Shown one piece after another: positions 101 to 9,605 of a DNA stretch of 64,000 bases. Below the pieces are notes generated by a model. The model searched no databases, was not told where the DNA came from, and was given only the letters and a program-made list of their open reading frames with translations. The translations under genes were made by a program, and so were the position numbers. Each line of letters starts with the position of its first letter. Position 1 is the stretch's first letter. This DNA is from Candidatus Methylomirabilia bacterium (GTDB taxonomy: Bacteria > Methylomirabilota > Methylomirabilia > Rokubacteriales > CSP1-6). Location: the NCBI GenBank assembly GCA_041490825.1, contig JBGPTW010000002.1, positions 28,445 through 92,444 of the forward strand, written 5' to 3'.

Positions 101-3436
<3,336 letters not shown>

Positions 3437-3462
3437 GTGGGACTTCTTGGAGACGTAACAGC

Positions 3463-4426
3463 TTACAGCGCGCGACCCCAGATCATCGCCAAATTCTCTA
3501 GGAGCGGCAAAGGGAACGACGCGGCCCAGGCATCCCGCAGTCGAAAGGCGTCGCGTTCAAGCCGCTCGAACACCATGAGCGCCTCCGGCTGGAATATGAG
3601 CGGATTGCATCGGTCGTCATCGCGATAGGCCTCGAAAAGTTCATCGAGCTTCTGCCGGTTCCTGGCAACGAAACTCCGTATCAGCTCGCCGAACTCCTTC
3701 CGCTCGCGAGCATCGTAGAGTCCTTCGAGTACTGGAATGATGTCGAGCGACAGCTCCCGGTCATAGGGGCGAGCCACAAACTGGTAGAAATGTTGCTCTA
3801 TCTCTGCCAACACTCCGGCTTCCGGTGCTCCAGGCAGCATCTCAATTGCCTTTCGGGCGTCCTGCACGGTCTCATCGAACAACTCGATCAACGCCATCAA
3901 CCGGTAGATCCGCCGCTTAATTTCAATCGGAGTGTCTCGCGCCGGCTTGTAGAGAAGGCGATGCGACACATCGGCCCAGCAGTTCTGTGCTCGGGTGTGT
4001 ATCTGTACTTCCGCGATCAGACCCCGCCACTCAGCGCGCGCGACATCACCATCGTGGAGCGATACATCGAAGTGGACACCGAGATAACCCAGCTCGTGGT
4101 AATCAAGCCCGAGCGTCTTGTTCTCATATCGTTCGACAGCAAATCTTGCGCGAATGACTTCCTCCACGACTGGAACGTCGTCGACGAACGTCACGACAAC
4201 GCGAATCCCGGCTTTGTCGTGAATCTCTTCGTACGGCGCGCCGTATGATTTTCCTCAACACCTTCTTGAGAAGGCTGGCGACCTCCTTCGGTCTCGCATC
4301 AACCGAGCACGGTAGCCCGCGCCGCTGGAGGTCGGTTTTCAGGAGCGTGCGAATATGATCGCCGAGAGCTCCATAGACGGGGCGGTCAGCGATCCAGCGT
4401 TCACGGATCGGTTCGAGGTCGATCAT
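3463..4426 (-). pseudogene. RelA/SpoT-domain (small alarmone synthetase / toxSAS-like nucleotidyltransferase) gene interrupted by a 1-nt frameshift
   Basis: Two overlapping frames (4124..4426 and 3463..4194) together give a RelA/SpoT synthetase fold: N-part ...ARPKEVASLLKKVLRK, C-part ...YGAPYEEIHDKAGIRVVV...LDYHELGYLGVHFDV...AEVQIHTRAQNCWADVSHRLLYK. Frame switch maps to an A4/T4 run near 4246-4256. ATGA overlap with upstream gene. Confidence 0.75.
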
Positions 4427-5469
4427 CGCTTGCCGTGAACGCGATCCAATCGGTCTTCAATCTGAACTCGTGTCCGTCCATCGTCGAGCTCAGACATCTG
4501 GACATGATCGCGGAATGACTCCGGTGAGCCCAGGACCGCCAGCCCGCTAGAGGAGTCGAGCTGAAGGCGCTGAATCTGACCCGCGATGAGCGTCGTGTCC
4601 TTCTGAACTACCGTCGTTGAGACATCCTTCGTTTCGAGAAACGTGATGTAACGCTGGCGATCATCGAGTTCGAGATGGCGCTGAGCAAAATCGCGAGGCC
4701 GTAGTAGGGTGGCGGTATCGTTCAGCTCGGCGAGCAGGGCGATGTTGTAGCGGGCCTTGAGGATGGGATCATTCACCTGCGCGTTGATGAAGTCCTCGGT
4801 CGCATTGAAGAAGCGCTTGGTACTCACGTCGGGCGCCTCCAAGAGCGTGCACCCGAGGAACCGCTTCAGAAAGAAGTCAGCGACCTCGGTCTTTGGCAGG
4901 TAGCCGCGCTGTTTGTCAGAAACGGCCCCCGCGATGGTGTCACCGTCTCCATCGGGCTTGATGAAGAGGCCGATCTTGAAGACCTTCGTCTTTGCGTTTA
5001 ACATCAAGTCGCGCAGGTGTTCGATATTGAAGGTCCGCTTCTCCTCGACGCGGGCCTGTTCGACTCGTACGCCTTCCTCCTTCTCAACCTTCAGAATTGC
5101 GAGGGCGCGCCGGCCCCCCACCGCAACGCGTGCCACAATGACGAGGCCCGGGGGGTTCACGCCCGTCTGAGTCGCATATAGGTGCTGCGCAATGGCGACC
5201 GACTTCTCAACGAAGGAACGACCGTCGCCGAGATACCCGGTAACCAGGCCGGGTACGGGCGAGCCGGAGGTTGCATCGAACGCGACGTCGTATGCAGCTG
5301 TTGTCAGGCTGCCTACAATCCGCTCTTTGAAGTAGTTCTTCAGTTCTTGCGTAAGTGGGCTATCGATCTCGCTGAACACTGGCTTCGGCCCGCCGCCGCG
5401 CGCAGGACGGGGCGGCACCTCATGAACTATGAGGCGCTCGACGGCCAGTCGCCCGAGATCAATTTTCAT
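4423..5469 (-). CDS. NdpA/YejK-family (37-kDa nucleoid-associated protein-like) protein, 348 aa
   Basis: From internal Met260 of ORF 4423..6246: MKIDLGRLAVERLIVHEV... aligns with the YejK N-terminus (MSLDINQIALHQLI), and FFLKRFLGCTLLEAPDVSTKRF with the YejK FFMDFLGASEG region. The upstream 260 aa of the ORF is low-complexity and not coding. Region is visibly lower GC than flanks. Confidence 0.7.
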   Translation of the reverse strand: MKIDLGRLAVERLIVHEVPPRPARGGGPKPVFSEIDSPLTQELKNYFKERIVGSLTTAAYDVAFDATSGSPVPGLVTGYLGDGRSFVEKSVAIAQHLYATQTGVNPPGLVIVARVAVGGRRALAILKVEKEEGVRVEQARVEEKRTFNIEHLRDLMLNAKTKVFKIGLFIKPDGDGDTIAGAVSDKQRGYLPKTEVADFFLKRFLGCTLLEAPDVSTKRFFNATEDFINAQVNDPILKARYNIALLAELNDTATLLRPRDFAQRHLELDDRQRYITFLETKDVSTTVVQKDTTLIAGQIQRLQLDSSSGLAVLGSPESFRDHVQMSELDDGRTRVQIEDRLDRVHGKR

Positions 5470-5599
5470 GCGCGCGCCACAGCCTTGTGATTTTAGCAGG
5501 CCTGTGCGCCACCGGAGAACGGTGATGCTAACCGTCGCCGCCGCGGCCTTCGCCGTGCATGAGGCCGCACGGCCCGTCCGCGTGAACGCGCGCGGCTGA

Positions 5600-5827
5600 G
5601 CAACGCACGCGCGGCGATTCCACACTCGGCGCCGCGGCCAGGTCACATCGCGCCAACGCCACGTGCTGCGGATCGCGGCGGGCCGGGGTGCGGTTCGCCG
5701 TCGAGACCTCGTGTCGCGGTTCGGTATCTCGCGCGAGGCCGCGCCCGAGGACTTGGTGGCGCTCGTAAGAGCAGGGCTCCTGAGAAGATCGGGAACAGGA
5801 AGAGGCTCGACGTATTCGCCACCATGA
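5600..5827 (+). pseudogene. Orphan C-terminal winged-HTH fragment (RecG-like/HATPase_c_4-type DNA-binding tail: ...LVALVRAGLLRRSGTGRGSTYSPP*) lacking an N-terminal body
   Basis: 75-codon open frame with no ATG (only an internal GTG at 5663) ending in the characteristic L..LV..GLL.R.G.GRGT.Y motif; lies in the 590-bp divergent intergenic region. Confidence 0.4.
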
Positions 5828-6057
5828 CGCGCCCACCCCCACCACGGACTGCCCGTTACGGGGAAGGCGCCTGTGACGCTGTACCAGGTGTCGGCGCCGC
5901 CGACTGGGCCGGAGAGTTTTGCCCTGGTCGGGGAGGTTCGCCGCGAGGTCCGAAGTTGGCGCGGTGGCGGCGGAACCAAGCCTCTGGCCTTCGGAGCGGC
6001 CGGAAGAAGAGTGAGGAACCCCCTGGGCTCGTGTAGAGTCTGACTTCGAAGGACACC

Positions 6058-7044
6058 ATGGCGACCAAGGACCACGTCAGGGCGCTCGTCCAGAGTCACG
6101 CCGAGGGCGACGACGAGCGGTTCTACGCGATCGCGATGCAGGTCGCTGCTCAGGCGGCACGTCAGGGGCATACGAGATTCGCCCAGGAACTCCGTGACCT
6201 GGTCGATCAGGCGAAGGGTCGCACGAAGAACGCGTCGCCAGGACAACGGACCAGACCGGTGCCTGTCGTTCAGCCGCGAGGTGAACTCGCCGGCCTGTTA
6301 ACAGCGACCTACCCGAAGACTCGGCTCGGCGACATGGCCCTGGATGACGCGGTGAGGTCCCGAATTGACCGCGTACTCCTCGAGCAGCGCCAACGAGAGC
6401 GGATCCACGAGCACGGATTGTCGCCTCTCCGGAAGCTTCTCCTCATCGGCCCACCGGGGACCGGGAAAACGATGACGGCAGCCGCGATGGCGGGCGAGCT
6501 TGGGTTGCCGCTGTTCAGCATCCAGCTCGACGGGCTGATCACGAAGTACCTCGGCGAGACGGCCGCCAAGCTGCGACTCATCTTCGACGCGATACAGCAG
6601 ACTCGGGCGGTGTTCCTCTTTGACGAGTTCGACGCCCTCGGCGGGGAGCGCGCCGCGAGGAATGAGGTTGGCGAGATTCGCCGCGTGCTGAACTCCTTCC
6701 TCCAGTTTCTGGAGCAAGACGAGTCAGACAGCATCATCGTCGCGGCCACGAACCACCCGAAGCTGCTGGACCAAGCGCTCTTCCGGCGCTTCGATACGGT
6801 CATCGAGTACGTGCTGCCATCGCCAGGAATCGCGGAGAAGATCCTCCGCGGGAGGCTCGCGTTCCTGGGCACGTCACGCATCGAATGGCCGCAGGCCGTC
6901 GAGGCCGCCGAGGGCTTGAGCCACGCCGACATCACCCGTGCTTGCGAACACGCGGCGAAGAAGGCGATCCTCGCGCACCGTACAAGGGTCGAGACCGAAG
7001 AGGTCACGGAAGCGCTCAAAGAGCGACTGCCTGCGCGCGGATAA
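6058..7044 (+). CDS. AAA+ ATPase (classic AAA clade), first gene of ATPase + S8 protease pair (ietA-like)
   Basis: Walker A LLIGPPGTGKTM, Walker B VFLFDEFDAL, sensor-1 VAATNHP, arginine finger region LFRRFD; GAAGGA SD; followed 20 nt later by the protease gene. Confidence 0.85.
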   Translation: MATKDHVRALVQSHAEGDDERFYAIAMQVAAQAARQGHTRFAQELRDLVDQAKGRTKNASPGQRTRPVPVVQPRGELAGLLTATYPKTRLGDMALDDAVRSRIDRVLLEQRQRERIHEHGLSPLRKLLLIGPPGTGKTMTAAAMAGELGLPLFSIQLDGLITKYLGETAAKLRLIFDAIQQTRAVFLFDEFDALGGERAARNEVGEIRRVLNSFLQFLEQDESDSIIVAATNHPKLLDQALFRRFDTVIEYVLPSPGIAEKILRGRLAFLGTSRIEWPQAVEAAEGLSHADITRACEHAAKKAILAHRTRVETEEVTEALKERLPARG

Positions 7045-7064: not shown

Positions 7065-9605
7065 ATGCCCGCTCGACGTAACCGACGGCACCTTATCGTT
7101 CCCACCCCTCCGGCGACGGAGGCGTATACCCCGCATGGTCGGAAGATCAAGCGGCCGTCTTTCCCGGAACCGGCGAACCGACGGAGACACGCCATTGCTC
7201 TGCGGACGGCCCTCACGCGAGCTCAGCAAGAGGCGACCAGATCCCGACAGACCGTGGGAATCGCGGTCCACGGAGCCCAACCCGGCTTGTACATTCAGTT
7301 CGAGAGCCCGCCCGGCGTGGAGCTGAAGCTTGAATCGTTGGAGGACCGCCGCAAAGGAATCGAGATCGTTGCGGTTCAGATGGTACGCCGGCCGGACGAG
7401 CCCGCGATTCAGTTCGCGACGGTTTTTGTTCCCGATGGTGCACTGAAGCACTTCGTCACGAGGTTTGAGCAGTACTCGGAAGAGCGGACCTCGAAAGGTG
7501 AGCCGCGACACAAGGACATGGTGGACCGTATCGCTGCCCTGCGCCGAGCGAGCCTCCGCGCACTTTGGACGGACGACCCTGAGGTCTACCCTGCGGCCGG
7601 CGAGTCAATCTGGTGGGAGGTCTGGTTACGCCGGCATGACGGTCGGGAGCTCGAGCGGATGCTGGAGTTCGCCAACCTCGTTCACCTCACGGTGGGCGAG
7701 CGCCGCCTGGCCTTCGACGACCGGCTCATCGTTCTCGCGCGGGGAACCGAGGAGCAGCTCTCGGGATCGCTCGACGTTTTGAATGACGTTGCCGAGGTCC
7801 GCAAGGCCAAGGAGAGCGCTGCGTTCTTCGTCGACGCTGCGCCTGACGAGCAGGCAGCGTGGACCGATGACCTGAAGCGACGGACGATCTTGCCCTCGCC
7901 GGAGGCCCCGGCAGTTTGCATTCTGGATAGCGGAGTGAACCGTGGCCACCCGTTGCTCGAAGACGTGATCGGGCCGAACGACGCAATGGCAGTCGACCCA
8001 ACATGGGGCGCTCACGACGACGGCGGAGGCCCCGATAACATGGGGCACGGCACCGAGATGGCCGGGCTCGCGGCGTACGGTGACCTCGCCGACGTGCTCG
8101 CCTCCGGCGCGCCCACCCGCCTGTGGCACTGGGTCGAGTCGGTGAAGATTCTCCCACCTACCGGGGCCAATCCGCCCGAGCTGTACGGCGCCGTGACAGC
8201 GCAAGCGGTGAGCCGTCCAGAGGTGAACACGCCGCAACGCCTGCGGGCGTTTTCGCTTGCGGTGACCTCGACCGACAAACGCGATCGCGGTGAGCCGACG
8301 TCCTGGTCGGCCGCCATCGACGCCTTGGCGGCTGGCCGCACGTTCGACCCGGCGAGCCACGGATTGGTGTATCTCGATCCCGCCGAAGAGCAGGCGCACC
8401 GTCTCTTCGTCGTCAGTGCCGGCAACGTGTCAGCAGATCGGCTCGACGTCGCCCACCTCGACCGCAGCGATGTGGAGCCCGTACACGATCCAGCGCAGGC
8501 GTGGAACGCGCTGACCGTAGGCGCATACACCGAGAAGGCAGCCATCACGGATCCCGCGTGGGATGGATGGTCTCCGATCACTCCGCCCGGGGACCTGTCG
8601 CCGTGGAGCACGACGTCCGTTGCATTCCAGGATGCGTGGCCAATCAAGCCAGACGTGGTGTTCGAAGGCGGGAACGCCGCCCACGACGGGACCACGATTG
8701 ACTTTCCGGTCGCTGAGCTTTGCGTGCTGTCGACGTATTACAAACCGACGGAGAGATCGTTCGTCCTGTCCTGCGCCACAAGCGCCGCGACGGCTCAGGT
8801 GGCCCACATGGCCGGAGTCATTCGTGCGGAATATCCTGAGTTGTCGCCGGAGACCGTCCGCGCTCTCATTGTTCATTCGGCCGAATGGACGAAGGCGATG
8901 CAGGCGCGCCTTCGGGGCGCGGGTGGTAAGCGCGCCCGGGCGAAGCTGGTGCGACGTTACGGCTTCGGTGTTCCGAACCTCGACCACGCCCTGCGGAGTG
9001 CCAGCGACGCGCTGACGCTCGTGGTGCAAGCCGAGATCCGGCCCTTTGCCGACGGGAAGATGCGCGAGATGCATCTTCACCAACTGCCGTGGCCGAAGGA
9101 GGTGCTCGAAGAACTGGGGCAAACGTTTGTTCGATTGCGCGTGACGCTCTCCTACTTCATCGAGCCGAACCCTGGCCGGCGGGGATGGACCAGGAGACAC
9201 AGGTACGCGTCACATGGCCTTCGGTTCGAAGTGAAGTCCCCGACCGAAACCATCGACGATTTCCGCAAGAGCTTGAACAAGCGAGCGCTGGAGGAGGAGG
9301 AAGGCAAACCGGCCACCGGTGGCGATTCCAGCGGGTGGTTTCTCGGTGAGCAGACCCGCTTCAAGGGCTCGATCCACTCGGATACGTGGAGCGGCACGGC
9401 GGTGGACCTCGCTGAGCGCGGCGTGATCGGCGTCTACCCAGTGTCGGGGTGGTGGAAGGACCAGCCCAAGCGAGACAGAAGCCAGCTCGGTGCGCGTTAC
9501 GCGCTCGTGGTCGGCATCAGCACCGAGGCTCAGGAGGTCGACATCTGGACACCGGTTGCGCAGCAGATCGGCGTGCCGATCCAGGAAACGGTGCTCGAGG
9601 TCTGA
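7065..9605 (+). CDS. Subtilisin-like S8 serine peptidase with long N- and C-terminal extra domains (ietS-like)
   Basis: Catalytic Asp (CILDSGVNRGHP), His (MGHGTEMAGLAAYG), Asn (VVSAGNVS) and Ser (SCATSAATAQVAHMAGV) motifs all intact; about 250 aa N-terminal and about 250 aa C-terminal non-catalytic regions; start taken at first ATG after the upstream stop. Confidence 0.85.
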   Translation: MPARRNRRHLIVPTPPATEAYTPHGRKIKRPSFPEPANRRRHAIALRTALTRAQQEATRSRQTVGIAVHGAQPGLYIQFESPPGVELKLESLEDRRKGIEIVAVQMVRRPDEPAIQFATVFVPDGALKHFVTRFEQYSEERTSKGEPRHKDMVDRIAALRRASLRALWTDDPEVYPAAGESIWWEVWLRRHDGRELERMLEFANLVHLTVGERRLAFDDRLIVLARGTEEQLSGSLDVLNDVAEVRKAKESAAFFVDAAPDEQAAWTDDLKRRTILPSPEAPAVCILDSGVNRGHPLLEDVIGPNDAMAVDPTWGAHDDGGGPDNMGHGTEMAGLAAYGDLADVLASGAPTRLWHWVESVKILPPTGANPPELYGAVTAQAVSRPEVNTPQRLRAFSLAVTSTDKRDRGEPTSWSAAIDALAAGRTFDPASHGLVYLDPAEEQAHRLFVVSAGNVSADRLDVAHLDRSDVEPVHDPAQAWNALTVGAYTEKAAITDPAWDGWSPITPPGDLSPWSTTSVAFQDAWPIKPDVVFEGGNAAHDGTTIDFPVAELCVLSTYYKPTERSFVLSCATSAATAQVAHMAGVIRAEYPELSPETVRALIVHSAEWTKAMQARLRGAGGKRARAKLVRRYGFGVPNLDHALRSASDALTLVVQAEIRPFADGKMREMHLHQLPWPKEVLEELGQTFVRLRVTLSYFIEPNPGRRGWTRRHRYASHGLRFEVKSPTETIDDFRKSLNKRALEEEEGKPATGGDSSGWFLGEQTRFKGSIHSDTWSGTAVDLAERGVIGVYPVSGWWKDQPKRDRSQLGARYALVVGISTEAQEVDIWTPVAQQIGVPIQETVLEV

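What the first reader, a model, noticed from the sequence alone, without database searches (positions are those of the whole stretch)
3463..5469. Low-GC, translationally coupled NdpA/YejK-like + RelA/SpoT (toxSAS-like) two-gene module inside a defense island: candidate undescribed toxin/abortive-infection pair
On the minus strand an NdpA/YejK-family nucleoid-associated-protein homolog (348 aa) is followed, with an ATGA stop/start overlap, by a RelA/SpoT-domain nucleotidyltransferase with the full synthetase motif set (GY-G-H, EVQIHT, H--YK). The segment is clearly AT-richer than everything around it, indicating recent horizontal acquisition. It sits between a HEPN-DUF499 defense ATPase and an ietAS-like ATPase/protease pair. 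Small alarmone synthetase homologs are established toxins (toxSAS) and phage-defense effectors (CapRel). To my knowledge a partnership with an NdpA-like DNA-binding protein in the upstream antitoxin/sensor position is not a described architecture.
Basis: partly seen in the sequence, partly recalled or inferred. Interest (0 to 1): 0.8.

Follow-up and report, generated by a model that had tools for sequence, protein, structure and literature searches.

The report
Broken PANGU-type phage defence gene pair
This is a horizontally acquired two-gene anti-phage module, a DNA-bound YejK-like sensor plus an alarmone-synthetase effector, of a kind first described in an April 2026 preprint (type I PANGU); in this genome a one-base insertion has disabled the effector gene.

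Summary
On the minus strand a 348-aa NA37/YejK-like gene (5469..4423) overlaps by ATGA a RelA/SpoT-domain gene (4426..3463). The pair is the lowest-GC 2 kb of the window and lies between an Hma-type HEPN-DUF499 ATPase and IetA/IetS.

The claim that the architecture is undescribed is out of date. bioRxiv 10.64898/2026.04.06.716658 defines type I PANGU as a YejK-like nucleoid protein (Pag1A) plus a GRel small alarmone synthetase (Pag1B) with an acidic C-terminal domain. In that work the nucleoid protein is an activating sensor, not an antitoxin.

Both window proteins are full-length homologues (hhalign 99.9-100%) of the E. coli, Klebsiella, Ochrobactrum and Clostridium operons of that architecture, at about 24% identity.

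The pair is tightly conserved. 28 of 30 full-length synthetase loci in genomes have the nucleoid-protein gene directly upstream, against 0 of 41 loci that match the catalytic domain only. 57 of 62 metagenome loci have the synthetase directly downstream.

The window's effector carries a +1 frameshift (an extra A at 4249-4252), shared by four independent assemblies, so this copy is probably inactive.

Verdict: a divergent, pseudogenised new member of a known kind, of modest interest.

The parts
4423..5469 (-). pagA-like gene: intact 348-aa (38.6 kDa) YejK/NdpA-family nucleoid-associated protein, the presumed DNA-bound sensor and activator
   Evidence: ORF and translation. Pfam NA37 E=1.2e-15. 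AF2 model pLDDT 83, whose only significant PDB match is E. coli YejK 9be2 at E=1.6e-8. hhalign 100%, E=1.7e-39, over 336 columns to the NAPs of the E. coli, Klebsiella, Ochrobactrum and C. botulinum NAP+RelA/SpoT operons.
4423..4426 (-). ATGA stop/start overlap between the two genes (translational coupling)
   Evidence: Sequence read directly. The same 4-nt or 1-nt overlap occurs in relatives L005, L007, L008, L080, L081 and L084.
3463..4426 (-). pagB-like gene, a pseudogene: RelA/SpoT small alarmone synthetase of 320 aa (37.2 kDa) once one base is removed
   Evidence: Pfam RelA_SpoT E=1e-17. The repaired ORF has no other lesion and is 81%, 77% and 74% identical, without gaps, to the intact proteins P0001, P0002 and P0003. 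AF2 model pLDDT 88. hhalign 99.9%, E=2.9e-35, over 310 columns to proteobacterial and firmicute Pag1B-like proteins.
4249..4252 (-). frameshift site: an A4 run holding one extra A at codon 59/60 (AGG AAA A TCA TAC; intact relatives read R-K-S/D-Y)
   Evidence: The module DNA is identical in four assemblies that differ from the window elsewhere (99.85-99.99% identity).
4124..4426 (-). truncated product of the frameshifted gene: 59 native residues followed by 41 out-of-frame residues
3931..4426 (-). coding region for the synthetase (toxSYNTH) domain, residues 1-165, interrupted by the frameshift; catalytic residues R45, K47, K55, D70, R75, Y114, H118, E139 and Q141 are all encoded
   Evidence: Family-invariant columns. 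Foldseek to RelQ/SAS1 5dec gives TM 0.84 and E=1e-9; CapRel 7ztb is much weaker at E=6e-6. Profile against PDB: RelQ/RelP E about 1e-25, CapRel 6e-9.
3832..3930 (-). coding region for the long helical linker, residues 166-198
   Evidence: AF2 secondary structure shows helix 167-196.
3466..3831 (-). coding region for the acidic all-helical C-terminal domain, residues 199-320, the presumed NAP-binding ('DNA-mimicking') domain
   Evidence: Net charge -7 and pI 4.8; family mean charge -7.3. The domain is present only in synthetases that have a NAP gene upstream: 28 of 30 loci against 0 of 41. The domain alone aligns to the C-domain of the E. coli-type proteins at 81% probability, E=1.2e-5.
101..3436 (+). 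context: HEPN_Swt1 + DUF499 ATPase (PADLOC HmaC), last gene of an Hma-like system that continues beyond the window's left end
   Evidence: L001 shows DUF87/HerA, a DUF1156 methylase, DuOB and two DUF488 genes upstream.
6058..7044 (+). context: IetA AAA+ ATPase, divergent from pagA across a 588-bp high-GC spacer
   Evidence: PADLOC IetA E=1.3e-76.
7254..9605 (+). context: IetS subtilase
   Evidence: Pfam Peptidase_S8 E=7.5e-59 and PADLOC IetS E=1.1e-39. The start coordinate comes from the gene call in L001.

Best explanation
The locus is a divergent member of the type I PANGU class of abortive-infection systems. It was acquired horizontally into a defence island and is now disabled by a +1 frameshift in its effector gene.

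The mechanism below is inferred by homology to the systems characterised in the preprint; none of it was shown for this clade.
- The YejK-like protein (Pag1A-like) sits on chromosomal DNA as a dimer.
- The RelA/SpoT protein (Pag1B-like) has a synthetase domain, a long helix and an acidic C-terminal domain, and is kept inactive as a homo-oligomer.
- When phage nucleases shred the chromosome, the freed NAP binds the acidic C-terminal domain.
- The synthetase then transfers pyrophosphate from ATP to GTP/GDP. This makes (p)ppGpp, drains NTPs, and stops transcription and translation before the phage completes its cycle.

Shown here:
- the domain architecture;
- full-length homology of both proteins to the E. 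coli-type operons;
- strict co-occurrence of the C-terminal domain with a NAP gene;
- the acidity of that domain;
- a complete catalytic residue set;
- the RelQ-like rather than CapRel-like fold;
- the defence-island and low-GC context;
- the frameshift.

In this genome the effector reading frame breaks at codon 60, before the catalytic Asp and the G-loop Tyr. The module is therefore most likely non-functional, leaving an orphan sensor.
For: Architecture and domains.

Published system with the same architecture and a tested mechanism: bioRxiv 10.64898/2026.04.06.716658.

Homology to operons that fit the preprint's Cluster 1, including ones with a SLATT/DUF4231 gene in E. coli KFu023 and a Klebsiella IncFIB plasmid.

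The E. coli-type synthetase belongs to a family of about 600 gammaproteobacterial proteins of about 329 aa, which fits the 'GRel' name.

Pair conservation:
- 28 of 30 full-length synthetase loci in genomes have the NAP gene upstream. The two exceptions are a contig edge and a transposase gene upstream.
- 0 of 41 loci that match the catalytic domain only have a NAP gene nearby.
- 57 of 62 metagenome NAP loci with room downstream have the synthetase gene there.

Acidic C-domain.

Structure: the synthetase model matches RelQ/SAS1 (a tetrameric pppGpp synthetase) far better than CapRel. The NAP model matches E. coli YejK.

Defence island and lowest GC in the window.

Frameshift, real and shared by four non-identical assemblies.
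Against: - Identity to the E. coli and Klebsiella proteins is only 23-25%. The C-terminal domain alone aligns at 81% probability.
- The experimentally validated sequences (F. futtsuensis, P. aeruginosa, the authors' E. coli system) could not be retrieved. The link to them rests on architecture plus homology to E. coli-type operons that fit the paper's description.
- The mechanism comes from a single preprint that is not yet peer-reviewed.
- The nucleotide product and the trigger are untested for this clade.
- Most relatives of this clade do not lie next to recognisable defence genes. Among 132 neighbouring ORFs from 28 loci I found only 2 LmuB, 4 DNA methylases and 5 integrases.
- No full-length copy was found in viral contigs.
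Confidence: 0.75

Rival explanations
1. Classical type II toxin-antitoxin pair. The RelA/SpoT protein is a constitutively toxic toxSAS, and the upstream NAP-like protein is its antitoxin.
For: The upstream, translationally coupled small-gene layout resembles toxSAS toxin-antitoxin operons. In this window the 'toxin' is the gene that has been lost while the partner is intact, which is the usual decay order for a toxin-antitoxin pair.
Against: In the homologous PANGU systems neither protein, alone or together, is toxic, and the NAP is required for activity and defence. L014 carries a full-length synthetase ORF with a DDE transposase gene upstream in place of a NAP gene. L030, L036 and L038 have split NAP genes beside intact synthetase genes. 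PDB comparisons place the enzyme nearer RelQ/RelP than the toxin-antitoxin-type CapRel.
Confidence: 0.1
2. Not a defence system. It is an accessory stress module in which a nucleoid protein couples chromosome state to alarmone synthesis for the cell's own physiology, and it sits in the island by chance.
For: The catalytic domain is closest to the pppGpp-making RelQ/RelP. Most relatives have heterogeneous neighbourhoods without defence genes.
Against: Homologous operons protect E. coli from T4 and Bas34 by 3-4 logs. The distribution is patchy across at least seven phyla, with low GC here and integrases nearby, which is typical of mobile accessory genes. The same NAP clade also pairs with a small membrane protein in place of the synthetase, which is effector swapping typical of defence systems. 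The window copy lies directly between Hma-like and IetAS systems.
Confidence: 0.08
3. The module is still functional. Either the A4 run is a +1 slippage or phase-variation site that allows low-level synthesis of the full-length effector, or the frameshift is a sequencing artefact.
For: tRNA-Lys could re-pair one base downstream on AAA-A, and there is only one lesion in the gene.
Against: Close relatives read straight through with AAG or AAA and no extra base. Other frameshifted copies (L035, L143) break at different codons, so there is no conserved recoding site. A 4-nt run is too short for efficient slippage. Four non-identical assemblies agree on the extra base.
Confidence: 0.05

Closest known systems
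Type I PANGU (Pag1A YejK-like NAP + Pag1B/GRel toxSAS), bioRxiv 10.64898/2026.04.06.716658
   Same: - Bicistronic NAP-then-synthetase operon with overlapping genes.
- Protein sizes of 38.6 and 37.2 kDa, against the reported 40.6 and 37.5 kDa.
- Synthetase domain, helical linker and acidic C-terminal domain.
- Conserved G-loop Tyr.
- Full-length profile homology of both proteins to E. coli-type operons of that architecture.
- Location next to known defence systems.
   Different: - Only about 24% identical to the gammaproteobacterial proteins.
- The clade lives in Chloroflexota, Actinomycetota, Acidobacteriota, Cyanobacteria, Planctomycetota and Patescibacteria, not mainly in Pseudomonadota and Bacillota.
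- No SLATT gene.
- Activity is untested.
- The effector in this window is frameshifted.
Type II PANGU (NAP + transmembrane effector)
   Same: The sensor family is the same. Within the window's own NAP clade, 5 of 62 metagenome loci replace the synthetase gene with one for a 166-202-aa protein with a single predicted transmembrane helix.
   Different: The window's partner is a synthetase, not a membrane protein. In the sibling loci the transmembrane helix is N-terminal, whereas Pag2B is described with a C-terminal transmembrane domain.
toxSAS toxin-antitoxin systems (FaRel, FaRel2, PhRel, PhRel2) and fused CapRel(SJ46)
   Same: A RelA/SpoT synthetase fold is used as a growth-arresting effector controlled by a partner or a C-terminal domain, with an anti-phage role.
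   Different: The partner is an activator and sensor of host DNA integrity, not an antitoxin or a capsid sensor. Fold and profile similarity to CapRel is much weaker than to RelQ. The expected product is (p)ppGpp rather than pyrophosphorylated tRNA or (pp)pApp.
Housekeeping small alarmone synthetases RelQ/RelP (SAS1/SAS2)
   Same: These are the best structural and sequence matches for residues 1-198 (TM 0.84; E about 1e-25), and the catalytic residues are the same.
   Different: - They lack the 120-residue acidic C-terminal domain.
- The window protein scores 65.5 bits against the NCBIfam cut-off of 320.
- The window gene is operonic with a NAP gene.
- The window gene is horizontally acquired.
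E. coli YejK / NdpA (PDB 9be2)
   Same: The fold is the same, and it is the only significant PDB match. The protein also matches Pfam NA37.
   Different: About 13% identity. It is not a stand-alone core-genome nucleoid protein but a low-GC island gene coupled to an effector.

Membership tests
Type I PANGU | Two-gene operon: YejK-like NAP gene followed by a toxSAS gene, with a spacer under 40 bp | tested here: met
   ATGA overlap at 4423-4426, same strand, NAP gene first.
Type I PANGU | PagA is a YejK/NdpA-family protein of at least 300 aa (IPR007358 / NA37 HMM E<1e-10) | tested here: met
   348 aa. Pfam NA37 E=1.2e-15. Foldseek to YejK 9be2 E=1.6e-8.
Type I PANGU | PagB has an N-terminal toxSYNTH domain with the catalytic G-loop tyrosine | tested here: met
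   RelA_SpoT E=1e-17. Y114 in LGYLGVHF is invariant in the clade and aligns with Y129, which is conserved in three of the four proteobacterial/firmicute proteins of alignment A2 (E. coli, Klebsiella, Ochrobactrum).
Type I PANGU | PagB has a helical linker and an acidic C-terminal (DMK) domain that binds the NAP | tested here: inconclusive
   The architecture and acidity are met: helix 167-196, helical domain 201-316, net charge -7. The domain occurs only where a NAP gene is present. Homology of the domain alone is 81% probability. Binding itself was not testable.
Type I PANGU | Both proteins are homologous to members of the described cluster | tested here: met
   hhalign gives 99.9% (E=2.9e-35) for the synthetase and 100% (E=1.7e-39) for the NAP, against E. 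coli KFu023, a Klebsiella plasmid, an Ochrobactrum plasmid and a C. botulinum plasmid.
Type I PANGU | Effector assigned to the GRel subfamily in the RSH classification | not testable with these tools
   The RSH subfamily HMMs are not available. GRel was defined for gammaproteobacteria, and this clade is only about 24% identical to the gammaproteobacterial family.
Type I PANGU | Interface residues (Pag1B R258/R306/H314) and DNA-binding residues (Pag1A K200/R203/K204) | not testable with these tools
   The F. futtsuensis sequences are not held. Transferring the residue numbers onto the E. coli-type proteins failed. The equivalent loop in the window NAP (SDKQRGYLPK, residues 184-193) is basic, which is only suggestive.
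Type I PANGU | Intact, expressible effector gene | tested here: not met
   +1 frameshift at codon 59/60 (window 4249-4252), with a stop after 100 codons. It is shared by four assemblies.
Type I PANGU | NAP-dependent (p)ppGpp synthesis, tetramer-to-heterotrimer switch, phage protection | not testable with these tools
   These need biochemistry and phage assays.
toxSAS type II toxin-antitoxin | The synthetase is toxic alone and is neutralised by the adjacent gene product | not testable with these tools
   Indirect evidence argues against it: an orphan full-length synthetase gene without a NAP gene upstream in L014, and the preprint's non-toxicity data for homologues.
RelQ/RelP housekeeping SAS | Reaches the NCBIfam equivalog cut-off and has a single-domain protein of about 210 aa | tested here: not met
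   NF053588 scores 65.5 bits against a cut-off of 320. The protein has an extra 120-aa C-terminal domain.
Core-genome YejK/NdpA | Stand-alone, vertically inherited nucleoid protein gene with host-like composition | tested here: not met
   GC 0.592 and GC3 0.71, against host genes at GC3 0.80-0.90. The gene is operonic with the synthetase gene in 57 of 62 related loci.

The most novel reading that the evidence does not exclude
The Chloroflexota/Actinomycetota/Acidobacteriota clade may be an independently assembled lineage of NAP-coupled synthetases rather than a branch of GRel. It might have a different nucleotide product or trigger. Its effectors may be recurrently switched off: independent frameshifts occur here, in L035 and in L143. 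That could leave orphan NAP sensors that are free to be re-paired with other effectors, such as the small membrane protein seen in L123-L125.
Probability: 0.12. Interest if true: 0.5.

Novelty: new member of a known kind. Interest (0 to 1): 0.3.

Why it matters
The finding extends a newly described defence principle, sensing phage-induced chromosome degradation through release of a nucleoid protein. It places that principle in a divergent clade spread over soil and sediment phyla that the founding study sampled only sparsely.

Comparative genomics gives independent support for the key structural claim of the preprint. The acidic C-terminal domain of the synthetase is found only where a NAP partner gene is present.

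The window also gives a natural example of effector loss with sensor retention.

The architecture and mechanism are already published, and this copy is broken, so the finding does not open a new question.

Tried and rejected
- Sequence search of the PDB for a deposited Pag1A/Pag1B complex. Nothing was found for the NAP, and only RelQ/RelP/Rel/CapRel for the synthetase.
- Retrieving the validated F. futtsuensis and P. aeruginosa sequences. The preprint has no supplement held. The genome scan pattern did not pick them up. The last protein search returned the gammaproteobacterial family but no Ferrimonas entry among the 120 proteins listed. Transferring the published residue numbers onto the E. 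coli-type proteins failed.
- Viral contigs. Only synthetases matching the catalytic domain alone were found, with no full-length copy.
- Promoter and terminator scan of 3300-6200. No promoter-like site was found, and terminator-like sites were at chance level.
- Flanking repeats that could mark an insertion. None were convincing.
- Rfam and tRNA scans of the window. Both were empty.
- The afdb50 fold library was unavailable.
- PADLOC and Pfam on 132 neighbouring ORFs of 28 related loci, to test enrichment in defence islands. Hits were sparse and heterogeneous, so no enrichment claim is made for this clade.
- Programmed frameshifting was considered and rejected, because relatives lack the extra base and other broken copies break at different codons.
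- PADLOC PDC-S33 gave a weak partial hit on the catalytic domain (E=1.5e-11). I did not treat it as membership.
Full report
**Observation**

The minus strand of 3463-5469 holds two genes. The upstream gene runs from ATG 5469 to the stop at 4423 and encodes 348 aa. It matches Pfam NA37, the YejK/NdpA family, at E=1.2e-15. Its stop overlaps the next start codon as ATGA at 4426-4423.

The downstream gene matches Pfam RelA_SpoT at E=1e-17 and carries the motifs LGYLGVHF, EVQIHT and HRLLYK. It is split into two ORFs, 4426..4124 and 4194..3463. Comparison with intact relatives and a scripted repair locate the lesion. An A4 run at 4249-4252 holds one extra A: the window reads AGG AAA A TCA TAC, where relatives read R-K-S/D-Y. 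Removing one A gives a clean 320-aa ORF with no further lesion. That ORF is 81% identical, without gaps, to P0001.

The 2-kb module has GC 0.586 against a window mean of 0.677 (sd 0.020), the lowest value anywhere in the 64 kb. Its GC3 is 0.69, against 0.80-0.88 in the flanking genes.

The left neighbour (101-3436) carries HEPN_Swt1 and DUF499 and matches PADLOC HmaC at 1183 bits. The right neighbours are IetA (6058-7044) and IetS (7254-9605). The rest of the window is housekeeping: P-type ATPases, an archaeal-type AdoMet synthetase, RtcB, GroEL, ribonucleotide reductase and a sigma-70 factor.

**Is the frameshift real?**

The same protein and locus occur in two JGI metagenome assemblies and two NCBI MAGs. 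Over the regions they share, these differ from the window by 1 to 14 substitutions, which is 99.85-99.99% identity. They are therefore independent assemblies of close strains. All four are 100% identical across the 2181-nt module, including the extra A.

A 4-nt homopolymer is not a typical error site. I therefore treat the effector as a genuine, recently inactivated pseudogene. The reading frame is lost at codon 60, upstream of D70, R75, Y114, E139 and Q141. Any residual product, such as the 243-aa ORF, would lack the ATP- and Mg-binding residues.

**Conservation of the pair**

Database searches found about 100 synthetase homologues of about 320 aa and more than 170 NAP homologues of about 349 aa. 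Many of the two sets lie on the same contigs. Gene neighbourhoods show the same NAP-then-synthetase order, with a 1-4-nt overlap and unrelated flanks.

A scan of one genome per species with the synthetase alignment returned 71 loci. HMM searches of their six-frame ORFs gave the following.
- All 30 full-length matches have the NAP gene immediately upstream on the same strand, with two exceptions. L016 is cut by a contig edge. In L014 a DDE transposase gene sits upstream instead.
- None of the 41 matches limited to the catalytic domain (about 190 aa) has a NAP gene nearby.

The converse scan used the NAP alignment against metagenomes. Of 62 loci with room downstream, 57 have the synthetase gene directly downstream. 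The remaining five include L123 and L125, where I read the ORFs (L124 has the same layout by coordinates). These carry instead a 166-202-aa protein with an N-terminal hydrophobic helix.

The hosts span Chloroflexota, Actinomycetota, Acidobacteriota, Cyanobacteria, Planctomycetota, Patescibacteria and a gammaproteobacterial MAG. It also shows that the 120-residue C-terminal extension of the synthetase is the part that tracks the NAP.

**Structure**

The AF2 model of the repaired synthetase has pLDDT 88. It shows a synthetase domain (residues 1-165), one long helix (167-196) and an all-helical domain (201-316).

Foldseek against the PDB matches residues 1-200 to the tetrameric pppGpp synthetases RelQ/SAS1 and RelP. 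The best hit is 5dec, with target TM 0.84 and E=1e-9. CapRel 7ztb is much weaker at E=6e-6. The profile search agrees: about 1e-25 for RelQ/RelP against 6e-9 for CapRel.

The protein is nevertheless not a RelQ/RelP equivalog. It scores 65.5 bits against an NCBIfam cut-off of 320.

The C-terminal domain is acidic, with net charge -7 and pI 4.8. The mean over 24 relatives is -7.3.

The NAP model has pLDDT 83. Its single significant PDB match is E. coli YejK 9be2, at E=1.6e-8.

**What is known**

A full-text search found bioRxiv 10.64898/2026.04.06.716658, posted 6 April 2026. It defines PANGU as bicistronic defence operons built around a YejK-like NAP. Type I pairs the NAP (Pag1A) with Pag1B, a GRel-subfamily small alarmone synthetase. 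Pag1B has an N-terminal toxSYNTH domain, a helical linker and an acidic 'DNA-mimicking' C-terminal domain.

The preprint reports the following.
- Both genes are needed for defence against T4, and neither is toxic alone or together.
- Pag1B alone is an inactive tetramer.
- A Pag1A dimer binds the acidic domain with nanomolar affinity and forms an active 2:1 complex.
- Pag1A binds DNA fragments of 400 bp and 1 kb but not 200 bp. It leaves the nucleoid when T4 nucleases degrade the chromosome.
- Escape mutants map to T4 denA.
- A DNA-binding-deficient Pag1A makes the pair toxic.

The preprint also describes nine further NAP-centred operon types, and notes SLATT genes in some type I operons. Independently, DefensePredictor (PMC13092281) lists a YejK domain among domains newly validated in defence. 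The architecture is therefore described, and the partner is an activating sensor, not an antitoxin.

**Membership**

I could not retrieve the exact validated sequences. The preprint has no supplement held, and the structure is not in the PDB copy.

I instead found annotated NAP+RelA/SpoT operons that fit the paper's Cluster 1:
- a C. botulinum phage-like plasmid;
- an Ochrobactrum plasmid;
- a Streptomyces plasmid;
- a Klebsiella IncFIB plasmid and an E. coli chromosome, both with a DUF4231 (SLATT-clan) gene in front.

The E. coli-type synthetase belongs to a family of about 600 gammaproteobacterial proteins of about 329 aa. That fits 'GRel', which was named for gammaproteobacteria.

Profile-profile comparison of the window's clade with these operons gives 99.9% (E=2.9e-35, 310 columns) for the synthetase and 100% (E=1.7e-39, 336 columns) for the NAP. 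Pairwise identity is 23-25%. The C-terminal domain on its own aligns at 81% probability, E=1.2e-5. The G-loop tyrosine is conserved, Y114 here aligned with Y129 in the E. coli, Klebsiella and Ochrobactrum proteins.

Formal GRel assignment, the published interface and DNA-binding residues, and all biochemical features could not be tested. The one tested feature that fails is integrity of the effector gene.

**Mechanism and rivals**

The best-supported reading is a type I PANGU-like abortive-infection module, with the mechanism transferred by homology, that has lost its effector to a frameshift.

The toxin-antitoxin reading is disfavoured by three things:
- the preprint's genetics;
- the orphan full-length synthetase gene in L014;
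- split NAP genes beside intact synthetase genes in L030, L036 and L038, although those are long-read MAGs and may contain indel errors.

A purely physiological alarmone module is disfavoured by four things:
- the mobile, patchy distribution;
- the effector swap within the same NAP clade;
- the validated defence activity of homologues;
- the island context here.

I note, however, that neighbours of this clade elsewhere are heterogeneous. Among 132 ORFs there were 5 integrases, 4 methylases and 2 LmuB. I therefore make no enrichment claim.

Programmed recoding is unlikely. Relatives lack the extra base, and other broken copies (L035, L143) break at different codons.

**Verdict**

This is a divergent, pseudogenised new member of a known kind. 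The residual interest lies in three points:
- the breadth of the non-proteobacterial clade;
- the comparative-genomic confirmation that the acidic C-domain tracks the NAP;
- the recurrent loss of the effector.

Noticed in passing
L123:5095-5595, L125:1825-2433 (L124, L127 and L139 also lack the synthetase gene): NAPs of the same clade (about 45% identical to the window's) are followed here not by the synthetase gene but by a gene for a 166-202-aa protein with an N-terminal hydrophobic helix. This looks like a type II-like effector swap with the transmembrane helix at the opposite end to the described Pag2B. A tyrosine recombinase gene lies just downstream in L123.
   Followed up: partly
L014:198-3057: A full-length, intact synthetase ORF (322 aa) in an Actinomycetota MAG has a DDE transposase gene directly upstream and no NAP gene on the 4.6-kb contig. 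It is an orphan effector, which argues against the NAP being an antitoxin.
   Followed up: partly
L083:4629-5432, and plasmid hits H24-H30: Several Streptomyces linear plasmids encode hypothetical proteins that match only the acidic C-terminal domain (residues 205-317) of the synthetase, at 30-33% identity. In L083 this is a 267-aa protein without a Pfam domain, downstream of an HTH/DUF6292 protein rather than a NAP. The domain may be reused with other N-terminal modules.
   Followed up: partly
L035:6001-6962; L143:1517-2466; L030, L036 and L038 (NAP genes): Further split copies exist. The synthetase gene is frameshifted near codon 76 in L035 and near codons 40-50 in L143. The NAP gene is split in three long-read Acidobacteriota MAGs, which may be real decay or indel errors.
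   Followed up: partly
L085:4001-4929 (N. gonorrhoeae NZ_CP119140.1, a chromosome filed as a plasmid): A homologue of the Ochrobactrum-type synthetase (34% identity) is found in two BLAST pieces with no annotation. It is probably a pseudogenised PANGU-like remnant in gonococcus.
   Followed up: no
L002:5278-6265, equivalent to window 6058-7044: In the MAG GCA_041482695.1 the IetA gene is called as two ORFs (190 and 103 aa) instead of 328 aa. That assembly has 2 gaps relative to the window. IetA may be broken in that strain.
   Followed up: no
L005:3928-6495 and L007:6062-10462: Two relatives of the module lie next to SbcC/SbcD- or Rad50-like genes, and two neighbours in the genome set match Lamassu LmuB (E=1.5e-133). 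This may be a recurrent association with SMC-type systems.
   Followed up: no
window:27821-29113: The host encodes an archaeal-type S-adenosylmethionine synthetase (PF01941, E=6.7e-128). The same family appears near the module in the unrelated locus L008.
   Followed up: no
window:5470-6057: The 588-bp spacer between the divergent pagA-like and ietA genes has host-like high GC (0.69), unlike the module. It has no called gene, no Rfam hit and no sigma-70-like promoter, so the low-GC insert appears to end at or near the pagA start.
   Followed up: partly
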